In this document: positions 5,245-17,774 of the stretch, piece by piece
Numbering within the stretch: position 1 is the stretch's first letter
Layout of the letters: each line of letters begins with the position of its first letter
Assembly (NCBI GenBank): GCA_963692945.1
Contig: OY843585.1
Coordinates: forward strand, 30,001 to 62,000
Source of the DNA: Bdellovibrionales bacterium
GTDB taxonomy: Bacteria; Bdellovibrionota; Bdellovibrionia; Bdellovibrionales; UBA1609
Length of the DNA stretch: 32,000 bases
Direction: 5' to 3'
The notes under the pieces: model-generated
Databases searched by the model: none
What the model was told of the DNA's origin: nothing
Seen by the model: only the letters and a program-made list of their open reading frames with translations
Program-made: the position numbers and the translations under genes

Positions 5245-7002
5245 TTAGTTATCGAACATAGTAGATCGAATAACCTCCTCTATATTAACTAAACCTTCTT
5301 TTAATTTTGTAAGAGCACTATGTCTTAAAGTAATCATACCATCTTGAATGGCTATTTTTTTTAATTCCATAGGAGGCAGATCATCAAAAATAGCCTCTTT
5401 AATTTTTGGAGTGATTTTCATCATCTCATAAACAGCTATACGACCATTATAACCTAAATTATTACAAAAAGAACATCCACTTCCTTTATCATATACATTC
5501 TCTATAGTATAAAGAGATAAATCTTCTTTAGGGATACCTAGCTTTTCTAAATTTACTAAATCTTTTTCATGAATAGGTCTTTTACACTTATTACATAAGA
5601 GACGAAGTAATCTTTGAGAAATAATAATAGATGTATTATCTGCCACACTATACGAAGGAACTCCCATACTTAACAATCGTGTGACTGTAGAAGCTGTATC
5701 ATTTGTATGAAGAGTACTAAGGACTAAGTGACCTGTTGAAGAAGCTTTAAAAGCAATTTCTGCTGTTTCAATATCTCGAATCTCTCCAACTAAAATAATA
5801 TCAGGATCTTGTCTCAAAAAAGCTCTTAAAGCTACAGAGAAATCCAATCCAATTTTTTGATTCATTTGAACCTGATTAATACCATGTATACGAAACTCTA
5901 CAGGATCTTCTGCTGTAGAAATATTTCTATCGGGAGTGTTTAATTTCATCAATCCAGAGTAAATTGTAGTTGTTTTCCCTGAACCTGTAGGACCTGTCAT
6001 TAAAATCAAACCTTGAGGTTTTTGAAGAGCTTCTATAAACATCTTTAATTGAAAATTCTCCATACCCAATAAAGACATATCAACTTTTAAAGAAGAATCG
6101 TCTAGTATCCTCAAAACTATTTTTTCTCCATTAACTGTAGGAGTGGAATTAACACGCATATTTAATTCCTTACTATCTAAACGAATTTTTAAACGAGCAT
6201 CTTGAGGTTTCCTTTTTTCACTAATGTCCATATTACTCATAACTTTGATACGAGAAATAATAGCTGGTGCCATATCTTTAGGAAGCACATGCTTTTCATG
6301 TAATGCTCCATCCACACGATAACGAATGCGAAAAGAGTTTTCATAAACTTCCAAATGAATATCAGAAGATTTTAAACGAATGGCATCAGAAAATATAAGA
6401 TTCACAAAAGATATAACAGGATTAGATTGTTGTTTCTCTTCTTCTTTATCTAAGTTGACGGCTTTTTCATCTTCAAACCCAAAATTCTCTATGTCCATAT
6501 CATAGAATAAACTATCTAGTTTTTTCTGATTGTTATAACATTTACTAAGAACGTTTTTAATATCCGATTTACAAGCAACAACAGATTGAATTTTACAACC
6601 TGTTAACAAAGACAGGTTATCTATGATGTGTATGTTAGAAGGATCAGAAAATACCACTACTAAAGTTTTATCAATTTTAGTTAAAGGAACAAGAACATGT
6701 CTCTCGCAAATTCTACGAGGAATTAATTCTAGCAATTCTTTAGATATTTTATACTCTTCTAAATTCTCAATGGCTTCAATATTAAATTCTTTAGAAAAAA
6801 TTTGAACGATTTCTTTTTCATCAACATAGCCTTTTTCTAAAAGGGTATCTATCACTTCAGAATGATTAACATTACCTTTTCTATTTTTTAAATCTCCTAA
6901 AATGCTTTGCACTTTCGGATGAAATTTAGAAATATCAAATTTCTGTTTATTACGAACTATTAAATCATTATTAATCTTTTTTTTCTTAGCCTCTTGACCC
7001 AT
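5245..7002 (-). CDS. pilB: Type IV pilus assembly ATPase PilB (GspE family)
   Basis: 585 aa with an N-terminal GSPII-type domain, Walker A GPTGSGKTTT, TLHTND, and the tetracysteine motif CNKCKRP...GCSFCNNLGYNGR. Confidence 0.92.
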   Translation of the reverse strand: MGQEAKKKKINNDLIVRNKQKFDISKFHPKVQSILGDLKNRKGNVNHSEVIDTLLEKGYVDEKEIVQIFSKEFNIEAIENLEEYKISKELLELIPRRICERHVLVPLTKIDKTLVVVFSDPSNIHIIDNLSLLTGCKIQSVVACKSDIKNVLSKCYNNQKKLDSLFYDMDIENFGFEDEKAVNLDKEEEKQQSNPVISFVNLIFSDAIRLKSSDIHLEVYENSFRIRYRVDGALHEKHVLPKDMAPAIISRIKVMSNMDISEKRKPQDARLKIRLDSKELNMRVNSTPTVNGEKIVLRILDDSSLKVDMSLLGMENFQLKMFIEALQKPQGLILMTGPTGSGKTTTIYSGLMKLNTPDRNISTAEDPVEFRIHGINQVQMNQKIGLDFSVALRAFLRQDPDIILVGEIRDIETAEIAFKASSTGHLVLSTLHTNDTASTVTRLLSMGVPSYSVADNTSIIISQRLLRLLCNKCKRPIHEKDLVNLEKLGIPKEDLSLYTIENVYDKGSGCSFCNNLGYNGRIAVYEMMKITPKIKEAIFDDLPPMELKKIAIQDGMITLRHSALTKLKEGLVNIEEVIRSTMFDN

Positions 7003-11881: not shown

Positions 11882-12568
11882 CTAACCTAATAAATCACAG
11901 CCTAAAAAATTTCTTTTAGTTTGGAGGCAAGATTCCAAAACGGAAAAACTACCACTTGCTGGGTCAATAACAACATCTTCTTGTTCAGTAACTGCTTCAA
12001 TAAGTTTCATTTGTAACGCTAAAGGTTTTTGATGAGTGTGTTCTTTTTTTGAAATTTTTTCAAACCAAACATCTGGTATATTATGAATAGTCCAAACCCC
12101 TCTTGCTCTCTTCGGTTTTTTTTGTAAAATCAGTAAGTATTCACATTGTCTTCTTGTTCTATAGCCCATTCCAAATTTACCTTTATCCCAAGTTATCATA
12201 TCCACAATCTCTAAATCGGTCTGTTTGAACCAAGAACCTACACCTTCACATAAATGAAATTTATCAATCCATAAAAAAAGATGACCTGAAGATTGTAAGA
12301 CTCTACTGATCTCCTCTAAAAAAAACCCTATCTCCTCTTCAGACATTTGTTGTAAAGCAGACCTTTTCATTCCTCGTTTTTTTCCCTCATTGCCATAACT
12401 CATTTTATCTAAAACTCCTCTATACTGAGGATCAAAAAAACAAGCTGAAACGAATTGATCTTCCAAACAAGAAAGAAAAGTCAAACCTTCCATTTGAATT
12501 CTTGTATTGTATTTTATATTTTCAAGATTGTACTCTGTAAAAGATAAATCTAATAAATGAGATTCCAT
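11882..12568 (-). CDS. Orphan beta-class (N6-adenine or N4-cytosine) DNA methyltransferase
   Basis: Motif IV-like FFDPQYRG comes first and the motif I region [36 protein letters not shown] comes last, which is the circular permutation of the N6_N4_Mtase family. No restriction endonuclease gene is adjacent. I prefer the ATG at 12566-12568 (SD AAGGA with a 7-nt spacer) over the track TTG at 12574. Confidence 0.7.
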
Positions 12569-12780
12569 TCTCAATCCTTTTTAGAAAGTTTTATAGACTC
12601 AGGCTAAGAGATATAAGAGTCTCTGTAAAATTTTTATCGTCAATTCACAAGACAAAAGACTCGTTTTCAAGAAATAAAAAATCCTACATGTTGGCATCTA
12701 CAAAGTCTGGAGTTGCTGAAAGCAAGGTGTTTTCTATTTTTTATCACCGAAAATGATTCAAGAAAAGAAATTTCACTGGA

Positions 12781-15099
12781 TTATGTAGCATCTTCTTCAA
12801 GATTTTCTATTCTTTTTATAAGAGAGTTTAGATTCTGGTTCAGCTGTTTATTGTCTTTTTTGAAAGATTGGTTTTCTTTCTTTAAAGAAGATAGTCCTCT
12901 TTCTAATTTTTTGTTTGCAGATATTAATTTTTTCTCTGTTTGAAGTTGAGTCTTTTTTAGTTTTGTCATTTCTTTTGTAATAAAAGCGATGGATTTTGTA
13001 AGAGTAATTACAGACTCCTTAATAGAGGTTAGAGATTTTACCGTAAAGATGTAAAACTCTTTAAAAGATTTTATAATAATAGGAATAAATCCTTGAATGT
13101 TTAAATTTAAAGTTTTCTCTTTATCTGAATTTTCCGACACCAATTCTGGATATTGTTTTTGAACCTCTTGAGCAATAAAACCAATCTGTTTTGTCTGAGC
13201 TCTATTCTTGTCTCTCCAAAAGAAAGTTTTAGGATTTAATTTCAAAATGGAACCAAGTTGTTTTTTTAAATTTTTAATCTTGGTTTTAAGTCGGCGATCA
13301 GATGCTGGACATCCAAATCTTCCATTGGCATCTGCTCGAATATTACAACTTCTAACAGATGACACAACTAAATCTCCATCAATAGCAATAGATTGTCTTT
13401 TTGATGGTTTCCCTATAATCAAATCCCCATCAATGGTGACCGATTTTGTTCCTGACATATTCCCTTTAATCAAACCACCAATATCCAATTTGTAACTTTC
13501 ACTCCCGCAACCGAAAGATTGACAACCAGATCGGTATCCAATAGCAATATTATAATTTCCTGTTGTGTTAGAAGAACTAGCACTATCTCCGATGAGATTA
13601 TTGTGAATTCCAACTGTGTTTTGATAACCTGCTTTAGGCCCCATGAAGTTATTGTGACCTCCAGTGGTGTTTCTATAACCAGATAGACGCCCGATGAAGT
13701 TATTAAAATTTCCTGTTGTGTTTTTATAACCAGAAAGATTCCCTATGAAATTATTATTGTGTCCAGCCGTGTTGGCAAAACCAGACTGATATCCAATGAA
13801 GTTGTTGTAAGCTCCATTTGTATTTCTATAACCAGCACTATTCCCTATGAAATTATTATTGCGTCCAGCCGTGTTGGCAAAACCAGACTGATATCCAATG
13901 AAGTTGTTGTAAGTTCCATTTGTATTTCTATAACCAGCACTATTCCCTATGAAATTATTATTGTGCCCAGCTGTATTGGCAAAACCGGACTGATATCCAA
14001 TGAAGTTGTTGTAAGTTCCATTTGTATTTCTATAACCAGCATTATCCCCTATAAAGTTATTACGACTTCCAGTTACATTGTGATAACCAGATCCATAACC
14101 GATGAAGTTGTTGTAATATCCACCTGTGTTTTTATAACCAGACTGATATCCAATGAAAGTGTTCTTGTATCCTGTTGTATTTGAACGACCTGCTTGATAA
14201 CCAAAAAAAGTATTTTCTGAACCTGTTGTTAATTTCCCAGCTTCAAAACCAAAAGCGGTGTGTTTATTTACATTTACATCTATTGTTCCTCCACAACCAA
14301 CTAAACTGAATTCACCAGTAGAAGCATCTGTCACTTTATAACATTCTGGATCTCCACTTCCTCCTCCATCAAGAGCTACAGAACCACAAACATCTCCTGC
14401 ATAAGTTAAAGGGGTTGTATCTGCAATTATTAAATCAACAATCTCCTTTTCTTTTTGTATTTTTACTGCGGCTGTTAGATTGCTTAATGCTTTATAGTCC
14501 GTTATCTTTGTTTGTATATTTGCAGGAAGACCAGACTTCCCATCTGCTTTATCAATAATCTCTCCATAAAAAAGAGAACAACATTGAGAGGCTTTCACTG
14601 GAACTTTAAAATCCCAATTTGAATCCAAAGTCCCTACCCCTTTTAAGTAAATGATTTTAGGTTTTTTATCTGCTGGCACTCCTGTTTGACAATCTAGCAA
14701 CTCTGAGTCTGTTATGGCTGTGCAATCTCTAGATGCAAATGTAAAACCTGAAGGCTTGTTACTTATGTTATCATTTAAAATTTGCAAACATTTTTTATTA
14801 TTATCCATATTCTTTGAATTGTCTTCATTCGCAAATCTATCTACAATAGATTGAATCTGCATCACTTTCCAAAGTTCACTATTGGACTCTCTTAATTTCT
14901 TTTGGGCCGTGGATTGATGAACAATAGATGTTCCCACTCCTAAAATAACTATAGTTCCTATTACTGATGCAATAACAACACTAACAATAGCAGAACCTTT
15001 TCTATTTAATAAGGGATTAAATTTTTTAAGAAAACTTTTTGTGAGATGGATTAGGAGTTTTCTTTCTAGATTTAATATTCTTTTCATAGATAATTTCAT
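12781..15099 (-). CDS. Membrane-anchored, phage-tail-fibre-like trimeric fibre protein with a C-terminal peptidase-S74 intramolecular chaperone domain
   Basis: 772 aa. Residues 1-35 form a basic leader ending in RKG. Residues 36-60 are a hydrophobic helix, SAIVSVVIASVIGTIVILGVGTSIV. Residues 100-270 contain 8 Cys. Residues 281-536 hold about 15 copies of the 17-aa repeat NNFIGxxxGxxNTxGxx. Residues 600-685 read SDRRLKTKIKNL...LNPKTFFWRD...QIGFIAQEVQKQYPELV, a peptidase S74 / endosialidase-chaperone signature. Residues 690-772 are a K/E/L/N heptad-rich coiled coil. SD AAGGA lies 5 nt before the ATG. Confidence 0.85.
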   Translation of the reverse strand: MKLSMKRILNLERKLLIHLTKSFLKKFNPLLNRKGSAIVSVVIASVIGTIVILGVGTSIVHQSTAQKKLRESNSELWKVMQIQSIVDRFANEDNSKNMDNNKKCLQILNDNISNKPSGFTFASRDCTAITDSELLDCQTGVPADKKPKIIYLKGVGTLDSNWDFKVPVKASQCCSLFYGEIIDKADGKSGLPANIQTKITDYKALSNLTAAVKIQKEKEIVDLIIADTTPLTYAGDVCGSVALDGGGSGDPECYKVTDASTGEFSLVGCGGTIDVNVNKHTAFGFEAGKLTTGSENTFFGYQAGRSNTTGYKNTFIGYQSGYKNTGGYYNNFIGYGSGYHNVTGSRNNFIGDNAGYRNTNGTYNNFIGYQSGFANTAGHNNNFIGNSAGYRNTNGTYNNFIGYQSGFANTAGRNNNFIGNSAGYRNTNGAYNNFIGYQSGFANTAGHNNNFIGNLSGYKNTTGNFNNFIGRLSGYRNTTGGHNNFMGPKAGYQNTVGIHNNLIGDSASSSNTTGNYNIAIGYRSGCQSFGCGSESYKLDIGGLIKGNMSGTKSVTIDGDLIIGKPSKRQSIAIDGDLVVSSVRSCNIRADANGRFGCPASDRRLKTKIKNLKKQLGSILKLNPKTFFWRDKNRAQTKQIGFIAQEVQKQYPELVSENSDKEKTLNLNIQGFIPIIIKSFKEFYIFTVKSLTSIKESVITLTKSIAFITKEMTKLKKTQLQTEKKLISANKKLERGLSSLKKENQSFKKDNKQLNQNLNSLIKRIENLEEDAT
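13030..13302 (-). other. Peptidase S74 (intramolecular chaperone auto-processing) domain of the fibre protein
   Basis: The S600-D601-R-R-L-K-T-K-I motif is followed by LNPKTFFWRD, IGFIAQEV and YPELV. This matches the conserved layout of endosialidase and tail-fibre C-terminal chaperone domains. Confidence 0.8.
13494..14259 (-). repeat. Coding array of about 15 tandem 51-bp (17-aa) units, consensus NNFIGYxSGYxNTxGxx
   Basis: Read directly from the translated protein, aa 281-536. The units begin TAFGFEAGKLTTGSE, NTFFGYQAGRSNTTGYK, NTFIGYQSGYKNTGGYY, NNFIGYGSGYHNVTGSR and continue to NIAIGYRSGCQSFGCGS. Confidence 0.9.
13761..14066 (-). repeat. Three tandem copies of a 102-bp (34-codon, two-unit) higher-order repeat
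   Basis: Copy 1 (13761-13862) and copy 2 (13863-13964) differ at 2 of 102 positions. Copy 3 (13965-14066) is roughly 88% identical to copy 2. The period is a multiple of 3. Confidence 0.9.
14920..14994 (-). other. Hydrophobic N-terminal anchor of the fibre protein, PilX_N/pseudopilin-like
   Basis: RKG|SAIVSVVIASVIGTIVILGVGTSIVHQSTAQKKL has a Gly before a ~25-residue hydrophobic helix followed by a polar Q-rich stretch. From memory this resembles PilX-type minor pilin N-termini (no Glu at +5). It could equally be a plain signal-anchor. Confidence 0.35.
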
Positions 15100-15296
15100 G
15101 TGTATCCTTAATTATAAATGCAAATTCTATAATATCAATAGGCCTAGAAAGACATTCTCATTTTGAGACATTTTATTTTAACAATATCTAACTTATTAGC
15201 TCTATAAAAAAAATCTCATTTTTAAGATTTTCCAAGAACTGATTCTCATTTCTATTTGTATGGAAACAAAAACATCTTCCTAACTTAAATTTTTTT

Positions 15297-17537
15297 TCAA
15301 AGAAAGGAATGGTAGAGACGAAATAAACTTGTTAATAAATGAGCCGATTGAATCTTATCCTCATTATCTAATAATTGTTTTAATGAAATCCAGTGTAATC
15401 TGTTGTTTTTCAATGGATTGACTTCCACAACAAAAGGGTAAACTATCTCTGGCGTAATTCCCATACTTACTCTGTAATCCGATCCTAAAGGAGATATATT
15501 GTTTATCTTTACTTTAAAATCTTTCTCTAACTGATGAGTTGAATATTCTCTAGCCAATGTCATTGTACTTTTATCTTTTGGAATACGATAAGCAGGTACG
15601 GTGGGAAGAATAGAATTCTTATTAAATATTTGAGGGATAGGAAGATCTCTTACCTCTAATCCTACATATATTTCCCCATTAGACTTAAAAACAGGAATAA
15701 AAGAAACAGTGTGATGCGAAACATGTTTAGGTAAAACATATTCTAATGGATAGGTATTAACAGTAAATCCTCTGCTATTGATTTCTAAAAATTCCCCTAC
15801 CTTAACGTCAGCATAATCTACTTTTTGTTTTGTAGATACCCATGACTGTTTTTTCTTCATTCCTTCAAAAGAAAAAACATTAGATAATTTAGGAAGAGGT
15901 ATTTCTTTTAAAGAAATAGTATCTCCTATCCACTCTTCAAATGAAAGATTGTTGTATTTAAGCAATCTGTATATATTGATCTCTAACCGTGAATCAAAAG
16001 CTCCTCCCACTTGAAAAGCTCTTAAAGCATGCCCTGCTTCTGTATAAGTAAGATGGCCTGATATATTATTGTATTTCTGTCCAATATTTACAAAATAAGG
16101 AGATATTTTTTCTGCAATAAGACCTTCAGATGAATAATAAGAATTTTCTACATGGATGTCATTTAGATCGATTTTTTTAATCAATTTATATTTTTCAACA
16201 ATTAGTTTTTTTAAAGAAGCTATTTCACTTTGATTTGTAGTGGTTACTAAAGGTTCATTAACATAACCTCCAGAGTAAACATCTCTTAAATGAGGCGTTT
16301 CTAGATTAGCATTTATAATTCCTCTAGGGTATCCTTTACGACTTACAATATAAAGCTTATTTTCATTTTTAAAATAAGGAATGACATCAATCACAGGAAA
16401 AGGACGTTCTATAATTTGTAAAACTTCTTTTGTATCTTTATTTTGCATATATTTTATTTTTAAATAACTAGAGTCTTTAGATAAACTTCTTTTTTCATAA
16501 ATTTTTACACCTTCATCCTCATTAACCTTTTCTCCTATAGTTAAAATTTTTGTAGGAGGATAAGGAATAGGATTTCCATTTGTATCTTGTAACTTTATTT
16601 TATCTTCAAATCGGTTTTTATATATCCATTCATTGTAAATAGGTCTTGAAACTAAAATTCTCATTTGATTCATCCTATAAATTTCTTCTATTTGATTTTG
16701 TGACATATAAAGATACTCTTCTTTTATTTCTGCTTTCCAGTTAGATAAATAATCTTTATGATGGAGAAATTCTACAATAGTGCGAAGATCTAATTCTATA
16801 GTACTCCATTTTTTATTTTTCTGAATTATTTTATAAGGTATGGAATCTTTATGAATGCTACTACGAAATTCTTTTGCAAAAAGTTTAAATATCTGAAAGG
16901 TAGATAACTCTGTAAGTTTTTGATTACCTTTACCATCATCATTTCTTAATTTTAATTGTGCCGTAAGAGAGCCTTTAGGAATTACAAAATCCCTTAGCAT
17001 AAAAATACCACCATTTTTTAATTGTTCTATTTGATTAAAAAAGGCTTTAATCCCTTCAAGTAAACTATAACCTTCACCAGAAAAACTTGTTACATGATGA
17101 ATAACTGAAGAATTAATAATAGCATCTAAAGAATTATCAGGAAATATTTTTTTAGAAATATCTCCCTGTTTATAACTTAAATTGTCCGCTTCATATTTGC
17201 TACTAGCATTTTCTACCATTTTTGGATCAATATCTACACCAATGACTTTAGTATGCGGATAGGAATGAGCTATAAAATGGGTGGCTTTCCCTGTTCCAGA
17301 ACCCATGTCTGCAACAACTCCTTCGTTTGGAAGATAAAAAGACATCATAGCCATTTTTTCTAAATCCATTCGTGGAGGCGACTTTAAATAATGCTTTAAA
17401 TTCCCTTTACTGATTGCATATTTTCTAGGTATTTTTGTTAAAAAACTATCTTTACAAAGTTGAGACGATAGAGATAGAAAAGGAAATAAAAGAAGAGCAA
17501 TTAAAAGGGTTTTCATAGAAATATAATGCATTATCAT
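15297..17537 (-). CDS. Signal-peptide-bearing class I SAM-dependent methyltransferase fused to a ~500-aa duplicated domain of unknown function (possibly degenerate Nudix folds)
   Basis: 746 aa. The N-terminus MKTLLIALLLFPFLSLSSQ looks like a Sec signal. The methyltransferase motifs are motif I VVADMGSGTGKATHF, motif II KVIGVDIDPKMVENA, DAIINSSVIHHV and NGGIFMLRDF. Residues ~380-540 and ~595-746 align to each other: VIDVIPYFKNENKLYIV with TVSFIPVFKSNGEIYVG, YYSSEGLIAEKISPYFV with YRVSMGITPEIVYPFVV, and DSRLEINIYRLL with SAHLLTSLFRLY. Confidence 0.7.
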   Translation of the reverse strand: MIMHYISMKTLLIALLLFPFLSLSSQLCKDSFLTKIPRKYAISKGNLKHYLKSPPRMDLEKMAMMSFYLPNEGVVADMGSGTGKATHFIAHSYPHTKVIGVDIDPKMVENASSKYEADNLSYKQGDISKKIFPDNSLDAIINSSVIHHVTSFSGEGYSLLEGIKAFFNQIEQLKNGGIFMLRDFVIPKGSLTAQLKLRNDDGKGNQKLTELSTFQIFKLFAKEFRSSIHKDSIPYKIIQKNKKWSTIELDLRTIVEFLHHKDYLSNWKAEIKEEYLYMSQNQIEEIYRMNQMRILVSRPIYNEWIYKNRFEDKIKLQDTNGNPIPYPPTKILTIGEKVNEDEGVKIYEKRSLSKDSSYLKIKYMQNKDTKEVLQIIERPFPVIDVIPYFKNENKLYIVSRKGYPRGIINANLETPHLRDVYSGGYVNEPLVTTTNQSEIASLKKLIVEKYKLIKKIDLNDIHVENSYYSSEGLIAEKISPYFVNIGQKYNNISGHLTYTEAGHALRAFQVGGAFDSRLEINIYRLLKYNNLSFEEWIGDTISLKEIPLPKLSNVFSFEGMKKKQSWVSTKQKVDYADVKVGEFLEINSRGFTVNTYPLEYVLPKHVSHHTVSFIPVFKSNGEIYVGLEVRDLPIPQIFNKNSILPTVPAYRIPKDKSTMTLAREYSTHQLEKDFKVKINNISPLGSDYRVSMGITPEIVYPFVVEVNPLKNNRLHWISLKQLLDNEDKIQSAHLLTSLFRLYHSFL

Positions 17538-17774
17538 CCTACAGTGTTTTTTTACAATTCAAATTAAAAAGAATAATTACAGATAAATATCTTAAAATTA
17601 AAAATATTTTTCATAAAAATTCCCTGATTTGCAGTTGAATTATAACATAGCAAGCCCATTGCAAATAAAGATATTTATAGATTGAATTTTTTACACTTTT
17701 ATATAGTAGTTGTTTAAAAAAAATACAATCTAATTTATTATTTAAAATGTCTCTTACTATTGATTCTTATTTTC

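What the first reader, a model, noticed from the sequence alone, without database searches (positions are those of the whole stretch)
12781..15099. Chimeric cell-anchored fibre: pseudopilin-like N-terminus, Cys-rich module, 15 x 17-aa repeats, S74 auto-chaperone and long coiled-coil tail, encoded outside any phage
Seen in sequence: the domain order listed in the feature table, including a near-textbook S74 motif (SDRRLKTKI...IGFIAQEV...YPELV). Established knowledge: S74 intramolecular chaperone domains drive trimerisation of phage tailspikes and tail fibres and are then autocleaved at the conserved Ser. NxFIGxxAGxxNTxG-type repeats are typical of trimeric beta-helical fibre shafts. Bdellovibrio has been reported to display phage-fibre-like chimeric trimeric adhesins for prey recognition. 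Inference: this would be a host-encoded, envelope-anchored trimeric fibre. If the RKG|SAIV... N-terminus is a PilX/minor-pilin-type helix, the fibre could be presented on the type IV pilus whose ATPases are encoded 6 kb away. To my knowledge, a pilin-like anchor combined with an S74 domain would be an undescribed architecture. The ~80-aa coiled coil after the S74 domain is longer than the usual short tail and would be released by autocleavage.
Basis: partly seen in the sequence, partly recalled or inferred. Interest (0 to 1): 0.8.

Follow-up and report, generated by a model that had tools for sequence, protein, structure and literature searches.

The report
Pilin-anchored phage-like fibre adhesin gene
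A bacterial chromosome gene fuses a degenerate pilus-subunit-type membrane anchor to a phage tail-fibre shaft with a self-cleaving folding domain, so it most likely makes a cell-displayed trimeric adhesin; the gene is real and not part of a prophage, but this domain combination was already listed in a 2021 database survey.

Summary
ORF 12781-15099 (-) encodes 772 aa: a 35-aa basic leader, one hydrophobic helix, a module with 8 Cys, 15 x 17-aa repeats, a Peptidase_S74 domain (Pfam E=2.6e-15, S600/K605) and a 91-aa helical tail. It is not in a prophage. All 32 kb is housekeeping. The closest relative is collinear at 81-82% identity but lacks a 5.14-kb two-gene insert that carries the fibre gene. 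The N-terminus fails Pfam N_methyl and PilX_N. It is nevertheless homologous (39.6 bits; best shuffle 6.7) to a family of about 125 proteins reading G|F(S/T)L(I/V)G. Of 106 of these scanned, 65 hit N_methyl and 35 hit S74, and 37 of the 126 proteins examined locally carry both the motif and S74. The helix best matches the PilW-position minor pilin of a classical operon. Phage relatives (at least 293) share only the shaft and S74. The pilin+S74 combination is not undescribed: Raynaud et al. 2021 list IPR012902-IPR030392 for 29 proteins, uncharacterised. Best reading: a cellular chimera, analogous to Bdellovibrio MAT fibres but with a Glu5-less minor-pilin-derived anchor. Pilus-tip display is inferred, not shown. 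The nearby pilBTC genes are coincidental.

The parts
12781..15099 (-). Whole gene, 772 aa plus stop: chimeric pilin-anchored S74 fibre
   Evidence: ORF list and RBS; full-length homologues P0002, P0003
14995..15099 (-). Residues 1-35: long basic leader ending in R-K-G (Gly at -1 of the putative prepilin-peptidase site)
   Evidence: Sequence. The leader is conserved in P0003 and P0122. There is no alternative start after M5.
14920..14994 (-). Residues 36-60: the single hydrophobic helix (SAIVSVVIASVIGTIVILGVGTSIV), an alpha1N-like anchor with Ser at +1 and Ser at +5
   Evidence: Hydropathy. Scores 39.6 bits against an HMM of 89 F+1 relatives, with shuffles at 6.7 or below. Relatives hit N_methyl.
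14263..14919 (-). Residues 61-279: continuation of the long helix, then a module with 8 Cys, ending in the conserved junction ECYKV...SLVGCGGT (residues about 252-272)
   Evidence: Alignments A2 and A4. The junction is shared by 42 family members and absent from 80 viral loci. AF2 model pLDDT is 63 with helix 7-62 of the construct. There is no PDB fold match.
13498..14262 (-). Residues 280-534: 15 x 17-aa repeats (N-F-I-G-x-x-[SA]-G-[YF]-x-N-T-x-G-x-x-N), the putative trimeric beta-shaft. It includes a recent 102-nt super-repeat at 13694-14141.
   Evidence: PHROG tail-spike and virion-structural hits cover 266-470. Viral relatives match this region.
13303..13497 (-). Residues 535-599: post-repeat distal tip with the C585-C597 loop, hypervariable among paralogues. 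It becomes the C-terminal end of the mature fibre after cleavage.
   Evidence: Alignment A1 columns about 1090-1150 vary in both length and sequence. By analogy with T5 pb1, the binding site is unmasked on cleavage.
13057..13302 (-). Residues 600-681: S74 intramolecular chaperone core with the Ser600/Lys605 dyad (SDRRLK), GFIAQEV and YPELV motifs
   Evidence: Pfam PF13884 E=2.6e-15. PDB 6F45 profile hit E=6.4e-11. Phage tblastn matches stop at about residue 681.
12784..13056 (-). Residues 682-772: extended helical, coiled-coil-like tail of the chaperone domain
   Evidence: No Pro, one Gly, heptad pattern. Family tails run 65-225 aa beyond the S74 core. The T5 pb1 terminal coiled coil is about 24 aa.
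12630..17769 (.). 5,140-bp lineage-specific insertion holding exactly two genes (the 746-aa SAM-methyltransferase fusion at 15297-17537 and the fibre gene), between the LolC/E-like gene and the N6_N4 DNA methylase/LolD-like genes
   Evidence: blastn of L091 against the window: the flanks are collinear at 81-82% identity and 176 bp in the relative are replaced by 5,140 bp. No terminal repeats or target-site duplication; GC is 30.4% against 31.8% for the rest.

Best explanation
This is a chromosomal, non-prophage gene for a chimeric fibre adhesin. The C-terminal two thirds are of phage tail-fibre type: a shaft of 17-aa repeats, a small variable tip, and an S74 intramolecular chaperone with a long terminal coiled coil.

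Inferred mechanism, from established S74 biology:
1. Three chains register through the coiled coil.
2. The chaperone templates the trimeric shaft from the C-terminal end.
3. Ser600/Lys605 then cut off residues 600-772, which exposes the variable tip (535-599).

The N-terminal third is cellular. It has a long basic leader ending in Gly, and a hydrophobic helix about 25 residues long that is homologous to the alpha1N helix of minor type IV pilins. It lacks Phe+1 and Glu+5. A disulfide-rich module follows, ending in a conserved C.xV...LVGCG.T junction.

Most likely the helix inserts in the inner membrane as a class III (prepilin-type) signal-anchor. In that case the three helices of the trimer would be taken up by the type IV filament machinery as a Glu5-less tip cap, comparable to the trimeric tip pilins CofB and TcpB, and the fibre would be presented on a pilus.

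Shown here: the domain content, the homology of each part, the cellular context, and the insertion. Inferred: trimerisation, autocleavage, prepilin-peptidase processing and pilus-tip display.
For: - S74 domain with the catalytic motif.
- Shaft and S74 are shared with at least 293 viral-contig proteins and with PHROG tail-fibre families.
- The anchor helix and junction are absent from all 80 viral loci examined.
- A deep profile of the N-module finds 125 cluster representatives. About 90 carry G|F(S/T)L(I/V)G..., with +5 = G in 62, S in 15 and E in 10.
- Of 106 scanned, 65 hit N_methyl and 35 hit S74. Of the 126 proteins examined locally, 37 have both the motif and S74.
- The target anchor scores 39.6 bits against an HMM that excludes its own subgroup.
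- The same HMM scores 47-49 bits on the third, PilW-position, Glu5-bearing pilin of a canonical N_methyl x3 + PilX_N operon.
- An even number of Cys (12) argues for an extracytoplasmic location.
- P0122 carries the same anchor module with a different payload, so the module is portable.
- Literature: tip complexes are capped by a Glu5-less subunit and filaments grow from tip to base (PMC10191384). CofB and TcpB are trimeric tip pilins, and the N_methyl-S74 architecture is recorded (PMC8179133). The terminal coiled coil of the chaperone may nucleate folding (PMC4690869).
Against: - The target itself gets no Pfam N_methyl or PilX_N hit even at E<1.
- It has Ser at both +1 and +5 and an unusually long 35-aa leader.
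- The globular module shows no pilin fold. The AF2 model has pLDDT 63, and the best Foldseek PDB match has E=0.79.
- No prepilin peptidase or pilin gene lies in the 32-kb window or next to three homologues.
- The pilBTC proximity is coincidental.
- No multimer model or experiment was possible.
Confidence: 0.55

Rival explanations
1. The protein is a signal-anchored envelope fibre with no link to pili. The N-terminal helix is only a relic of a pilin and is no longer cleaved. It works as a plain inner-membrane anchor or uncleaved signal-anchor, and the S74-matured fibre stays in the periplasm or reaches the surface by another route.
For: The target lacks Phe+1 and Glu+5 and has no N_methyl hit. 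The leader is 35 aa long. No pilin fold was detected. There is no genomic linkage to pilus genes in any of four loci.
Against: Gly-1 and the helix are conserved in a family in which 65 of 106 members pass N_methyl at E<=0.01. Glu5-less pilins are the expected tip caps. A fibre tethered to the inner membrane of a diderm has no obvious target (inference).
Confidence: 0.3
2. The protein is a member of the Bdellovibrio MAT (mosaic adhesive trimer) family in the strict sense. It would be exported by Sec and held on the cell surface by the conserved MAT N-terminal domain.
For: The concept matches: host-encoded S74 fibres with the SDxxxK motif, several paralogues and variable tips. The nearest named PrfB relatives are 'Bdellovibrionales bacterium' MAGs.
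Against: [quoted passage not shown] The target instead has a 35-aa leader plus a 25-residue hydrophobic helix, too long for a Sec h-region, and a largely helical Cys-rich module. Its N-module profile retrieves almost only prepilin-like N-termini from 1.84 billion proteins.
Confidence: 0.07
3. The gene is a prophage or phage-remnant tail-fibre gene.
For: The shaft and S74 hit PHROG tail-fibre and tail-spike families and at least 293 viral contigs. The gene lies in a 5.14-kb insertion next to a DNA methylase.
Against: There are no phage structural, integrase or tRNA genes in 32 kb. The insert has no terminal repeats and has genome-like GC. The co-inserted gene gives only generic methyltransferase hits. 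Homologues are single genes among housekeeping genes. The membrane anchor and junction are absent from viral relatives.
Confidence: 0.03
4. The fibre is a released or secreted product. After prepilin-type processing it would be exported by a T2SS-like machinery and act as a free lectin-like or bacteriocin-like receptor binder, and would not be cell-anchored.
For: The prepilin-like signal and phage receptor-binding-type architecture. No data bear on localisation.
Against: Class III signals leave the hydrophobic alpha1N on the mature protein, which argues against a soluble product (established pilin biology, PMC10191384). No T2SS genes were seen in the window.
Confidence: 0.05

Closest known systems
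Bdellovibrio bacteriovorus MAT fibres, S74 subgroup (e.g. Bd3182; Caulton et al. 2024, PMC10769870)
   Same: Both are host-encoded, outside any prophage, phage-like trimeric fibres ending in an S74 chaperone/protease with SDxxxK. Both have several paralogues per genome with variable distal tips. Both lineages are related, if loosely, to Bdellovibrionales.
   Different: MATs have a Sec signal peptide and an invariant beta-rich N-domain of about 130 aa whose surface receptor is unknown. The target has a prepilin-like leader and helix plus a rare Cys-rich module, and no similarity to a MAT N-domain was detected.
Modular type IV pilins (S. sanguinis PilB/PilC), including the catalogued architecture IPR012902-IPR030392 (Raynaud et al. 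2021, PMC8179133)
   Same: An N-terminal pilin-type signal and helix is fused to a non-pilus functional module. N_methyl + S74 (29 proteins) and N_methyl + YadA-head + S74 (4 + 3 proteins) are already counted in their Dataset S1.
   Different: That survey read S74 as a 'peptidase activity' and characterised none of these proteins. The target would not have been found by its criterion, because it fails N_methyl, lacks Phe1 and Glu5, and has no demonstrable pilin globular fold.
CofB / TcpB, the homotrimeric tip-located minor pilins of type IVb pili
   Same: They are a precedent for a homotrimer with three pilin N-terminal helices sitting at the pilus tip, initiating assembly and carrying an adhesive or adapter domain.
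   Different: They have no sequence relationship to the target. They trimerise through beta-repeat and beta-sandwich domains, have no S74 and no autocleavage, and are encoded inside the pilus operon.
Phage S74 fibres and spikes (T5 pb1, K1F endosialidase, S16 gp37 = PDB 6F45)
   Same: The S74 core with a Ser/Lys dyad is homologous (profile E=6.4e-11 to 6F45). The chaperone sits C-terminal to a trimeric beta-shaft and ends in a trimeric coiled coil. The distal tip is unmasked by cleavage.
   Different: The phage proteins have N-terminal virion-attachment domains, not a membrane helix. The T5 terminal coiled coil is about 24 aa against about 91 aa here.
Glu5-less tip minor pilins (GspK/PulK, PilK/PilX type)
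   Same: They lack Glu5, which is the expected property of the subunit that caps a type IV filament. They are large and can carry extra domains.
   Different: The target has no PilX_N (PF14341) or GspK similarity. Its helix resembles the PilW-position pilin instead.

Membership tests
Peptidase_S74 / intramolecular chaperone auto-processing domain | Significant match to PF13884 above the gathering threshold | tested here: met
   56.9 bits against a cutoff of 22, E=2.6e-15, model positions 1-57 of 58
Peptidase_S74 / intramolecular chaperone auto-processing domain | Catalytic Ser-Lys dyad in an SDxxxK motif | tested here: met
   S600-D-R-R-L-K605, invariant in five family members; the motif is as defined in PMC10769870
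Peptidase_S74 / intramolecular chaperone auto-processing domain | C-terminal position after a beta-rich fibre, ending in a trimerising helix | tested here: met
   Domain order. The profile aligns to 6F45 through the start of the terminal helix. The tail is helical and heptad-like.
Peptidase_S74 / intramolecular chaperone auto-processing domain | Homotrimerisation and autocleavage at the Ser | not testable with these tools
   No multimer prediction or experiment was available
Type IV pilin / class III signal peptide (N_methyl, PF07963 / IPR012902) | Pfam N_methyl hit at or above the gathering threshold | tested here: not met
   The target has no hit even at E<10 on the isolated N-terminus. Relatives do: P0043 at 26.0 bits (above the 21.2 cutoff), P0073 at 16.5 bits, and 65 of 106 family members at E<=0.01.
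Type IV pilin / class III signal peptide (N_methyl, PF07963 / IPR012902) | Gly at -1 after a basic leader, followed at once by a hydrophobic helix of about 20 residues or more | tested here: met
   ...NRKG35|S36AIVSVVIASVIGTIVILGVGTSIV. A Gly within the anchor consensus (GFSLIGVLVAS) is at least 90% conserved in A3.
Type IV pilin / class III signal peptide (N_methyl, PF07963 / IPR012902) | Phe (or Met/Leu) at +1 and Glu at +5 | tested here: not met
   The target has Ser at +1 and Ser at +5. In the family, +1 is F in 77 of 90, and +5 is G in 62, S in 15 and E in 10.
Type IV pilin / class III signal peptide (N_methyl, PF07963 / IPR012902) | Sequence homology of the helix to bona fide pilins | tested here: met
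   The target scores 39.6 bits against an HMM of 89 relatives that excludes its subgroup, with shuffles at 6.7 or below. The same HMM scores 47-49 bits on a Glu5 pilin in an N_methyl x3 + PilX_N operon. Caveat: the relatives were retrieved with a profile that included the target.
Type IV pilin / class III signal peptide (N_methyl, PF07963 / IPR012902) | Pilin globular fold (alpha1C packed on an antiparallel beta-sheet) | tested here: inconclusive
Type IV pilin / class III signal peptide (N_methyl, PF07963 / IPR012902) | Cleavage by a prepilin peptidase and incorporation into a filament | not testable with these tools
   No PilD gene lies in the window, and the rest of the genome could not be read
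PilX_N (PF14341) minor pilin | Match to PF14341 | tested here: not met
   No hit for the target or its relatives. As a positive control, the 933-aa protein in L090 hits at 34.3 bits.
Bdellovibrio MAT superfamily | Trimeric fibre with an S74 (SDxxxK) or alternative tip, in several paralogues | tested here: met
Bdellovibrio MAT superfamily | Sec signal peptide followed by the conserved beta-rich N-domain of about 130 aa | tested here: not met
   The target has a 35-aa leader plus a 25-residue hydrophobic helix and a mainly helical Cys-rich module. Its profile retrieves prepilin-like proteins. A direct comparison with a Bd MAT N-domain sequence was not possible.
Prophage tail fibre | Location among phage structural, lysis or integration genes | tested here: not met
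   All neighbours are housekeeping genes, with no tRNA or integrase. The insertion holds only this gene and a methyltransferase fusion. Three homologue loci are also non-phage.
Trimeric autotransporter adhesin | C-terminal YadA-type beta-barrel translocator and Hep_Hag head repeats | tested here: not met
   No such Pfam hits; the C-terminus is S74 plus a coiled coil

The most novel reading that the evidence does not exclude
In a small-genome, low-GC lineage related to Bdellovibrionales, type IV pili would be tipped by phage-derived, S74-matured trimeric receptor-binding fibres. Three Glu5-less, minor-pilin-derived helices would prime and cap the filament, so pilus retraction would pull the cell onto whatever the interchangeable fibre tip has bound. 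That would supply, for this lineage, the missing physical link between MAT-like recognition fibres and the pilus, a link the Bdellovibrio field has only speculated about. It would also define a new class of trimeric pilus tip adhesin.
Probability: 0.25. Interest if true: 0.8.

Novelty: new variant of a known kind. Interest (0 to 1): 0.55.

Why it matters
Host-encoded S74 fibres (MATs) are the current candidates for prey recognition in predatory bacteria, but how they are held on the cell is unknown. Separately, a pilin+S74 architecture has sat uncharacterised in a supplementary table, read only as a 'peptidase'.

This locus and its family of about 125 clusters connect the two. The S74 module here is clearly a tail-fibre maturation device, and it is fused to a minor-pilin-type anchor that lacks Glu5, which is the hallmark of a filament-capping subunit.

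If display on a pilus is confirmed, this would be a new way of arming type IV filaments with swappable phage receptor-binding modules. It is directly testable by S600A and G35 mutants, pilus shearing with mass spectrometry, and cryo-ET. If display is not confirmed, the protein is an envelope-anchored MAT analogue of moderate interest.

Tried and rejected
- Exact look-ups of the target and its paralogues P0002 and P0073 found no contig on record, so the rest of the 1.56-Mb genome (PilD, pilins, other paralogues) could not be read.
- The genome-contig scan did not contain the source genome and returned only two Bacteroidales repeat hits.
- Organism identification through PrfB and cluster members gave only 'Bdellovibrionales bacterium' at 58-60% identity.
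- A word-indexed search with the N-module found only two more proteins.
- The first AF2 model of the N-module was unusable (pLDDT 49). The second (pLDDT 63) gave no PDB fold match.
- Single-sequence PDB searches were negative or weak.
- The mobile-island idea (tRNA, integrase, flanking repeats, target-site duplication, GC shift) was tested and not supported.
With a tight anchor alignment it gave only four loci, all from an unrelated GC-rich organism.
- The strong promoter-like match at 15138-15111 was not used, because it abuts the start codon and such matches are near the chance rate in this AT-rich DNA.
- Literature searches for S74 + pilin + Bdellovibrio, and for intramolecular chaperone + type IV pilin, found nothing beyond the 2021 survey.


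Full report
**1. The observation**

The minus-strand ORF 12781-15099 encodes 772 aa, starting at an ATG that follows an AAGGA ribosome-binding site.

- Hydrophobic segment: there is only one, at residues 36-60. It follows a 35-aa, strongly basic leader that ends in R-K-G.
- Cysteines: there are 12. Eight lie in the module 61-279. Two more pairs are C526/C531 and C585/C597.
- Repeats: fifteen in-register 17-aa units occupy 280-534. Identity autocorrelation peaks only at lags 17, 34 and 51 (0.50, 0.61, 0.50). At the DNA level a 102-nt double unit is present in about 4 copies at 86-91% identity, so the array expanded recently.
- S74: Pfam Peptidase_S74 matches 600-654 end to end (E=2.6e-15, 56.9 bits against a cutoff of 22). 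It carries the SDRRLK Ser600/Lys605 motif. A family profile hits the solved phage S16 long-tail-fibre chain 6F45 at E=6.4e-11.
- Tail: the last 91 residues have no proline and a single glycine, and show a heptad-like pattern.

Full-length homologues at 40-50% identity show that the gene is real.

**2. Not a prophage, but an insertion**

All other genes in the 32 kb are housekeeping: MotA/ExbB, a histidine kinase, PilC, PilT, PilB, RibF, Skp, BamA, a LolD-like ATPase, a LolC/E-like permease, PrfB, YbeY, MurJ, HolA, ETF-QO, HIT, PNPOx and H+-PPase. There is no tRNA.

- The closest relative available (L091, PrfB 83% identical) is collinear with window 29339-4098 at 81-82% nucleotide identity. The one exception is that window 12630-17769 (5,140 bp) replaces 176 bp.
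- That insert holds exactly two genes: the fibre gene and a 746-aa SAM-methyltransferase fusion.
- A more distant relative (L092) has the two Lol genes directly adjacent.
- The insert has no terminal repeats or target-site duplication, and its GC is genome-like (30.4% against 31.8%).
- The flanking genes give only generic methyltransferase PHROG hits.
- Three homologues (L001, L002, L005) are likewise single genes among housekeeping genes.

One consequence follows. The pilB-pilT-pilC genes 6 kb away are in the same place in the relative that lacks the fibre gene, so their proximity carries no functional information.

**3. What the N-terminus is**

The target itself gets no Pfam N_methyl or PilX_N hit. 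Homologues give the answer.

- A paralogue that appears to be in the same genome (P0073) begins NNSG|FSLIGVLSAAAIGTIVILG. A metagenomic relative (P0043) begins NNKG|FTLIGVLVASVIGTIVVAG and passes the N_methyl gathering threshold (26.0 against 21.2 bits).
- A profile of the N-terminal module, searched against 1.84 billion representatives, found 125 proteins.
- About 90 of them carry (K/N)G|F(S/T)L(I/V)G-VLVAS-IG-IV--G. Position +1 is Phe in 77 and Ser in only 4, which is the target's subgroup. Position +5 is Gly in 62, Ser in 15 and Glu in 10.
- Of 106 scanned with Pfam, 65 hit N_methyl and 35 hit Peptidase_S74. Single members carry lectin, PKD, Big_3, chitinase-N or collagen-C4 payloads.
- With an iterated local S74 HMM, 37 of the 126 proteins examined have both the motif and S74.
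- An HMM built from 89 Phe+1 relatives, excluding the target's subgroup, scores the target's residues 30-69 at 39.6 bits. The best of 500 shuffles scores 6.7 bits.
- The same HMM scores 47-49 bits on a canonical Glu5 pilin. That pilin is the third gene of an N_methyl, N_methyl, N_methyl, PilX_N operon in an unrelated organism, i.e. the PilW position.

The anchor is therefore a divergent, Glu5-less derivative of a minor-pilin alpha1N helix and is not of the PilX_N type.

Whether the following Cys-rich module is a pilin domain remains open. The best AF2 model (28-sequence MSA, pLDDT 63) shows a 56-residue helix followed by a small alpha/beta domain, and it finds no PDB fold match.

That particular module is very rare. 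Only P0002, P0003, P0121 and P0122 share it closely among 5.8 billion proteins. P0122 carries it with a different, non-S74 C-terminus.

Forty-two family members share a conserved junction, C(Y)xV...(T/S)L(V/I)GCG(G/T)T, immediately before the shaft.

**4. Chimera of cellular and phage parts**

All of them align only with residues about 190/260 to 700, i.e. the shaft and S74. None of the 80 loci retrieved encodes the anchor helix or the junction motif. PHROG and phage-genome searches say the same: tail fibre, tail spike and long-tail-fibre distal subunit.

Phage similarity stops at about residue 681. In T5 pb1 the chaperone domain is 134 aa and ends in a triple coiled coil of about 24 aa, which is proposed to nucleate folding (PMC4690869). 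Here Ser600 to the end is 173 aa, with about 91 aa of helix. Tails of 65-225 aa beyond the S74 core are typical of the family.

**5. Mechanism**

Established S74 biology implies the following sequence: registration through the coiled coil, chaperone-templated folding of the trimeric shaft, then autocleavage at Ser600, which releases residues 600-772 (PMC10769870, PMC4690869).

The new C-terminus (535-599, with the C585-C597 loop) is the most variable region among paralogues. By analogy with T5 pb1, it is the receptor-binding tip unmasked by cleavage.

The polarity fits. The anchor is at the N-terminal, proximal end and the tip is at the C-terminal, distal end. The even number of cysteines fits an extracytoplasmic protein.

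For display, the best-supported inference is the type IV filament route. Filaments grow from tip to base, from a minor-pilin complex capped by a Glu5-less subunit (PMC10191384). Homotrimeric tip pilins exist in CofB and TcpB (PMC8179133). This step is not shown. The main rival is that the helix is now only a membrane anchor.

**6. Comparison with what is known**

- Functionally the protein parallels the S74 subgroup of Bdellovibrio MAT fibres. [quoted passage not shown]
- The pilin+S74 combination is not undescribed. Raynaud et al. 2021 list IPR012902-IPR030392 for 29 proteins, the sixth commonest modular-pilin architecture. They also list YadA-head-containing variants. They interpret S74 only as 'peptidase activity'.
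- No paper was found that characterises such a protein or links it to predatory bacteria.
- The organism is unidentified.

**7. Verdict**

This is a new variant of known kinds: the MAT-like S74 fibre and the modular pilin. Three things are new here:
- recognition of a sizeable Gly5/Ser5 prepilin-like family carrying tail-fibre modules;
- the conserved junction motif;
- the demonstration that this copy lies in a lineage-specific two-gene insertion.

Pilus-tip display is an attractive and testable hypothesis that remains unproven. Interest is 0.55.

Noticed in passing
L006 1-175 (contig of P0121, the orthologue of paralogue P0002): The anchor helix (LNQKG|SALVSVVIASAIGAIVILGVGTSI) is encoded in-frame just upstream of the called ATG. 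It is cut off from a leader-like ORF (HKLSFLLKK) by a stop next to an A7 homopolymer, and deleting one A would restore a long-leader ORF. P0002 in the source genome is called from the same internal Met. This could be an assembly error, a pseudogene or a phase-variable tract.
   Followed up: partly
window 15297-17537 (-): A 746-aa protein is co-inserted with the fibre gene. It has a signal-peptide-like N-terminus and a class I SAM methyltransferase domain (residues about 65-190), followed by about 550 aa with no family match. It is not found next to the fibre homologues in L001 or L002.
   Followed up: partly
window 11882-12574 (-), L091 12501-13187, L092 6093-6839: An orphan N6/N4 DNA methylase sits between the LolC/E-like and LolD-like genes in the window and in its closest relative, but not in a more distant relative, where the Lol genes are adjacent. 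This intergenic spot looks like a recurrent site for accessory genes.
   Followed up: partly
window 13759-14184 (+): A 141-aa ORF on the opposite strand of the repeat array is itself repetitive. It is almost certainly an artefact of the 51/102-nt periodicity and not a gene.
   Followed up: no
L001 4397-7822 (P0043): This 1141-aa relative repeats the whole 'junction (C...TLVGCG.T) + repeat block' unit three times before a single S74 domain. The junction-plus-shaft unit may therefore duplicate as a cassette.
   Followed up: partly
L005 10001-11050 (P0122), same assembly as L091: The same long leader, anchor helix and Cys-rich module is fused to a short, different Cys-rich C-terminus with no repeats and no S74. 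The relative that lacks the fibre gene at the lol locus probably carries this variant elsewhere in its genome.
   Followed up: partly
L090 8646-13933: A GC-rich metagenomic contig carries a textbook minor-pilin operon: three N_methyl genes followed by a 933-aa PilX_N protein, which is an unusually large PilX-type tip pilin.
   Followed up: partly
window 5245-7002 (-): The PilB-type extension ATPase carries an N-terminal MshEN domain, which is known as a c-di-GMP-binding module. Pilus extension in this organism may therefore respond to c-di-GMP.
   Followed up: no
window 15111-15138 (-): A near-consensus sigma-70-like promoter (TTGATA-16 nt-TATAAT, 11 of 12) ends only 11 nt before the fibre start codon and overlaps the RBS region. 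If it is used, the mRNA would be nearly leaderless.
   Followed up: no
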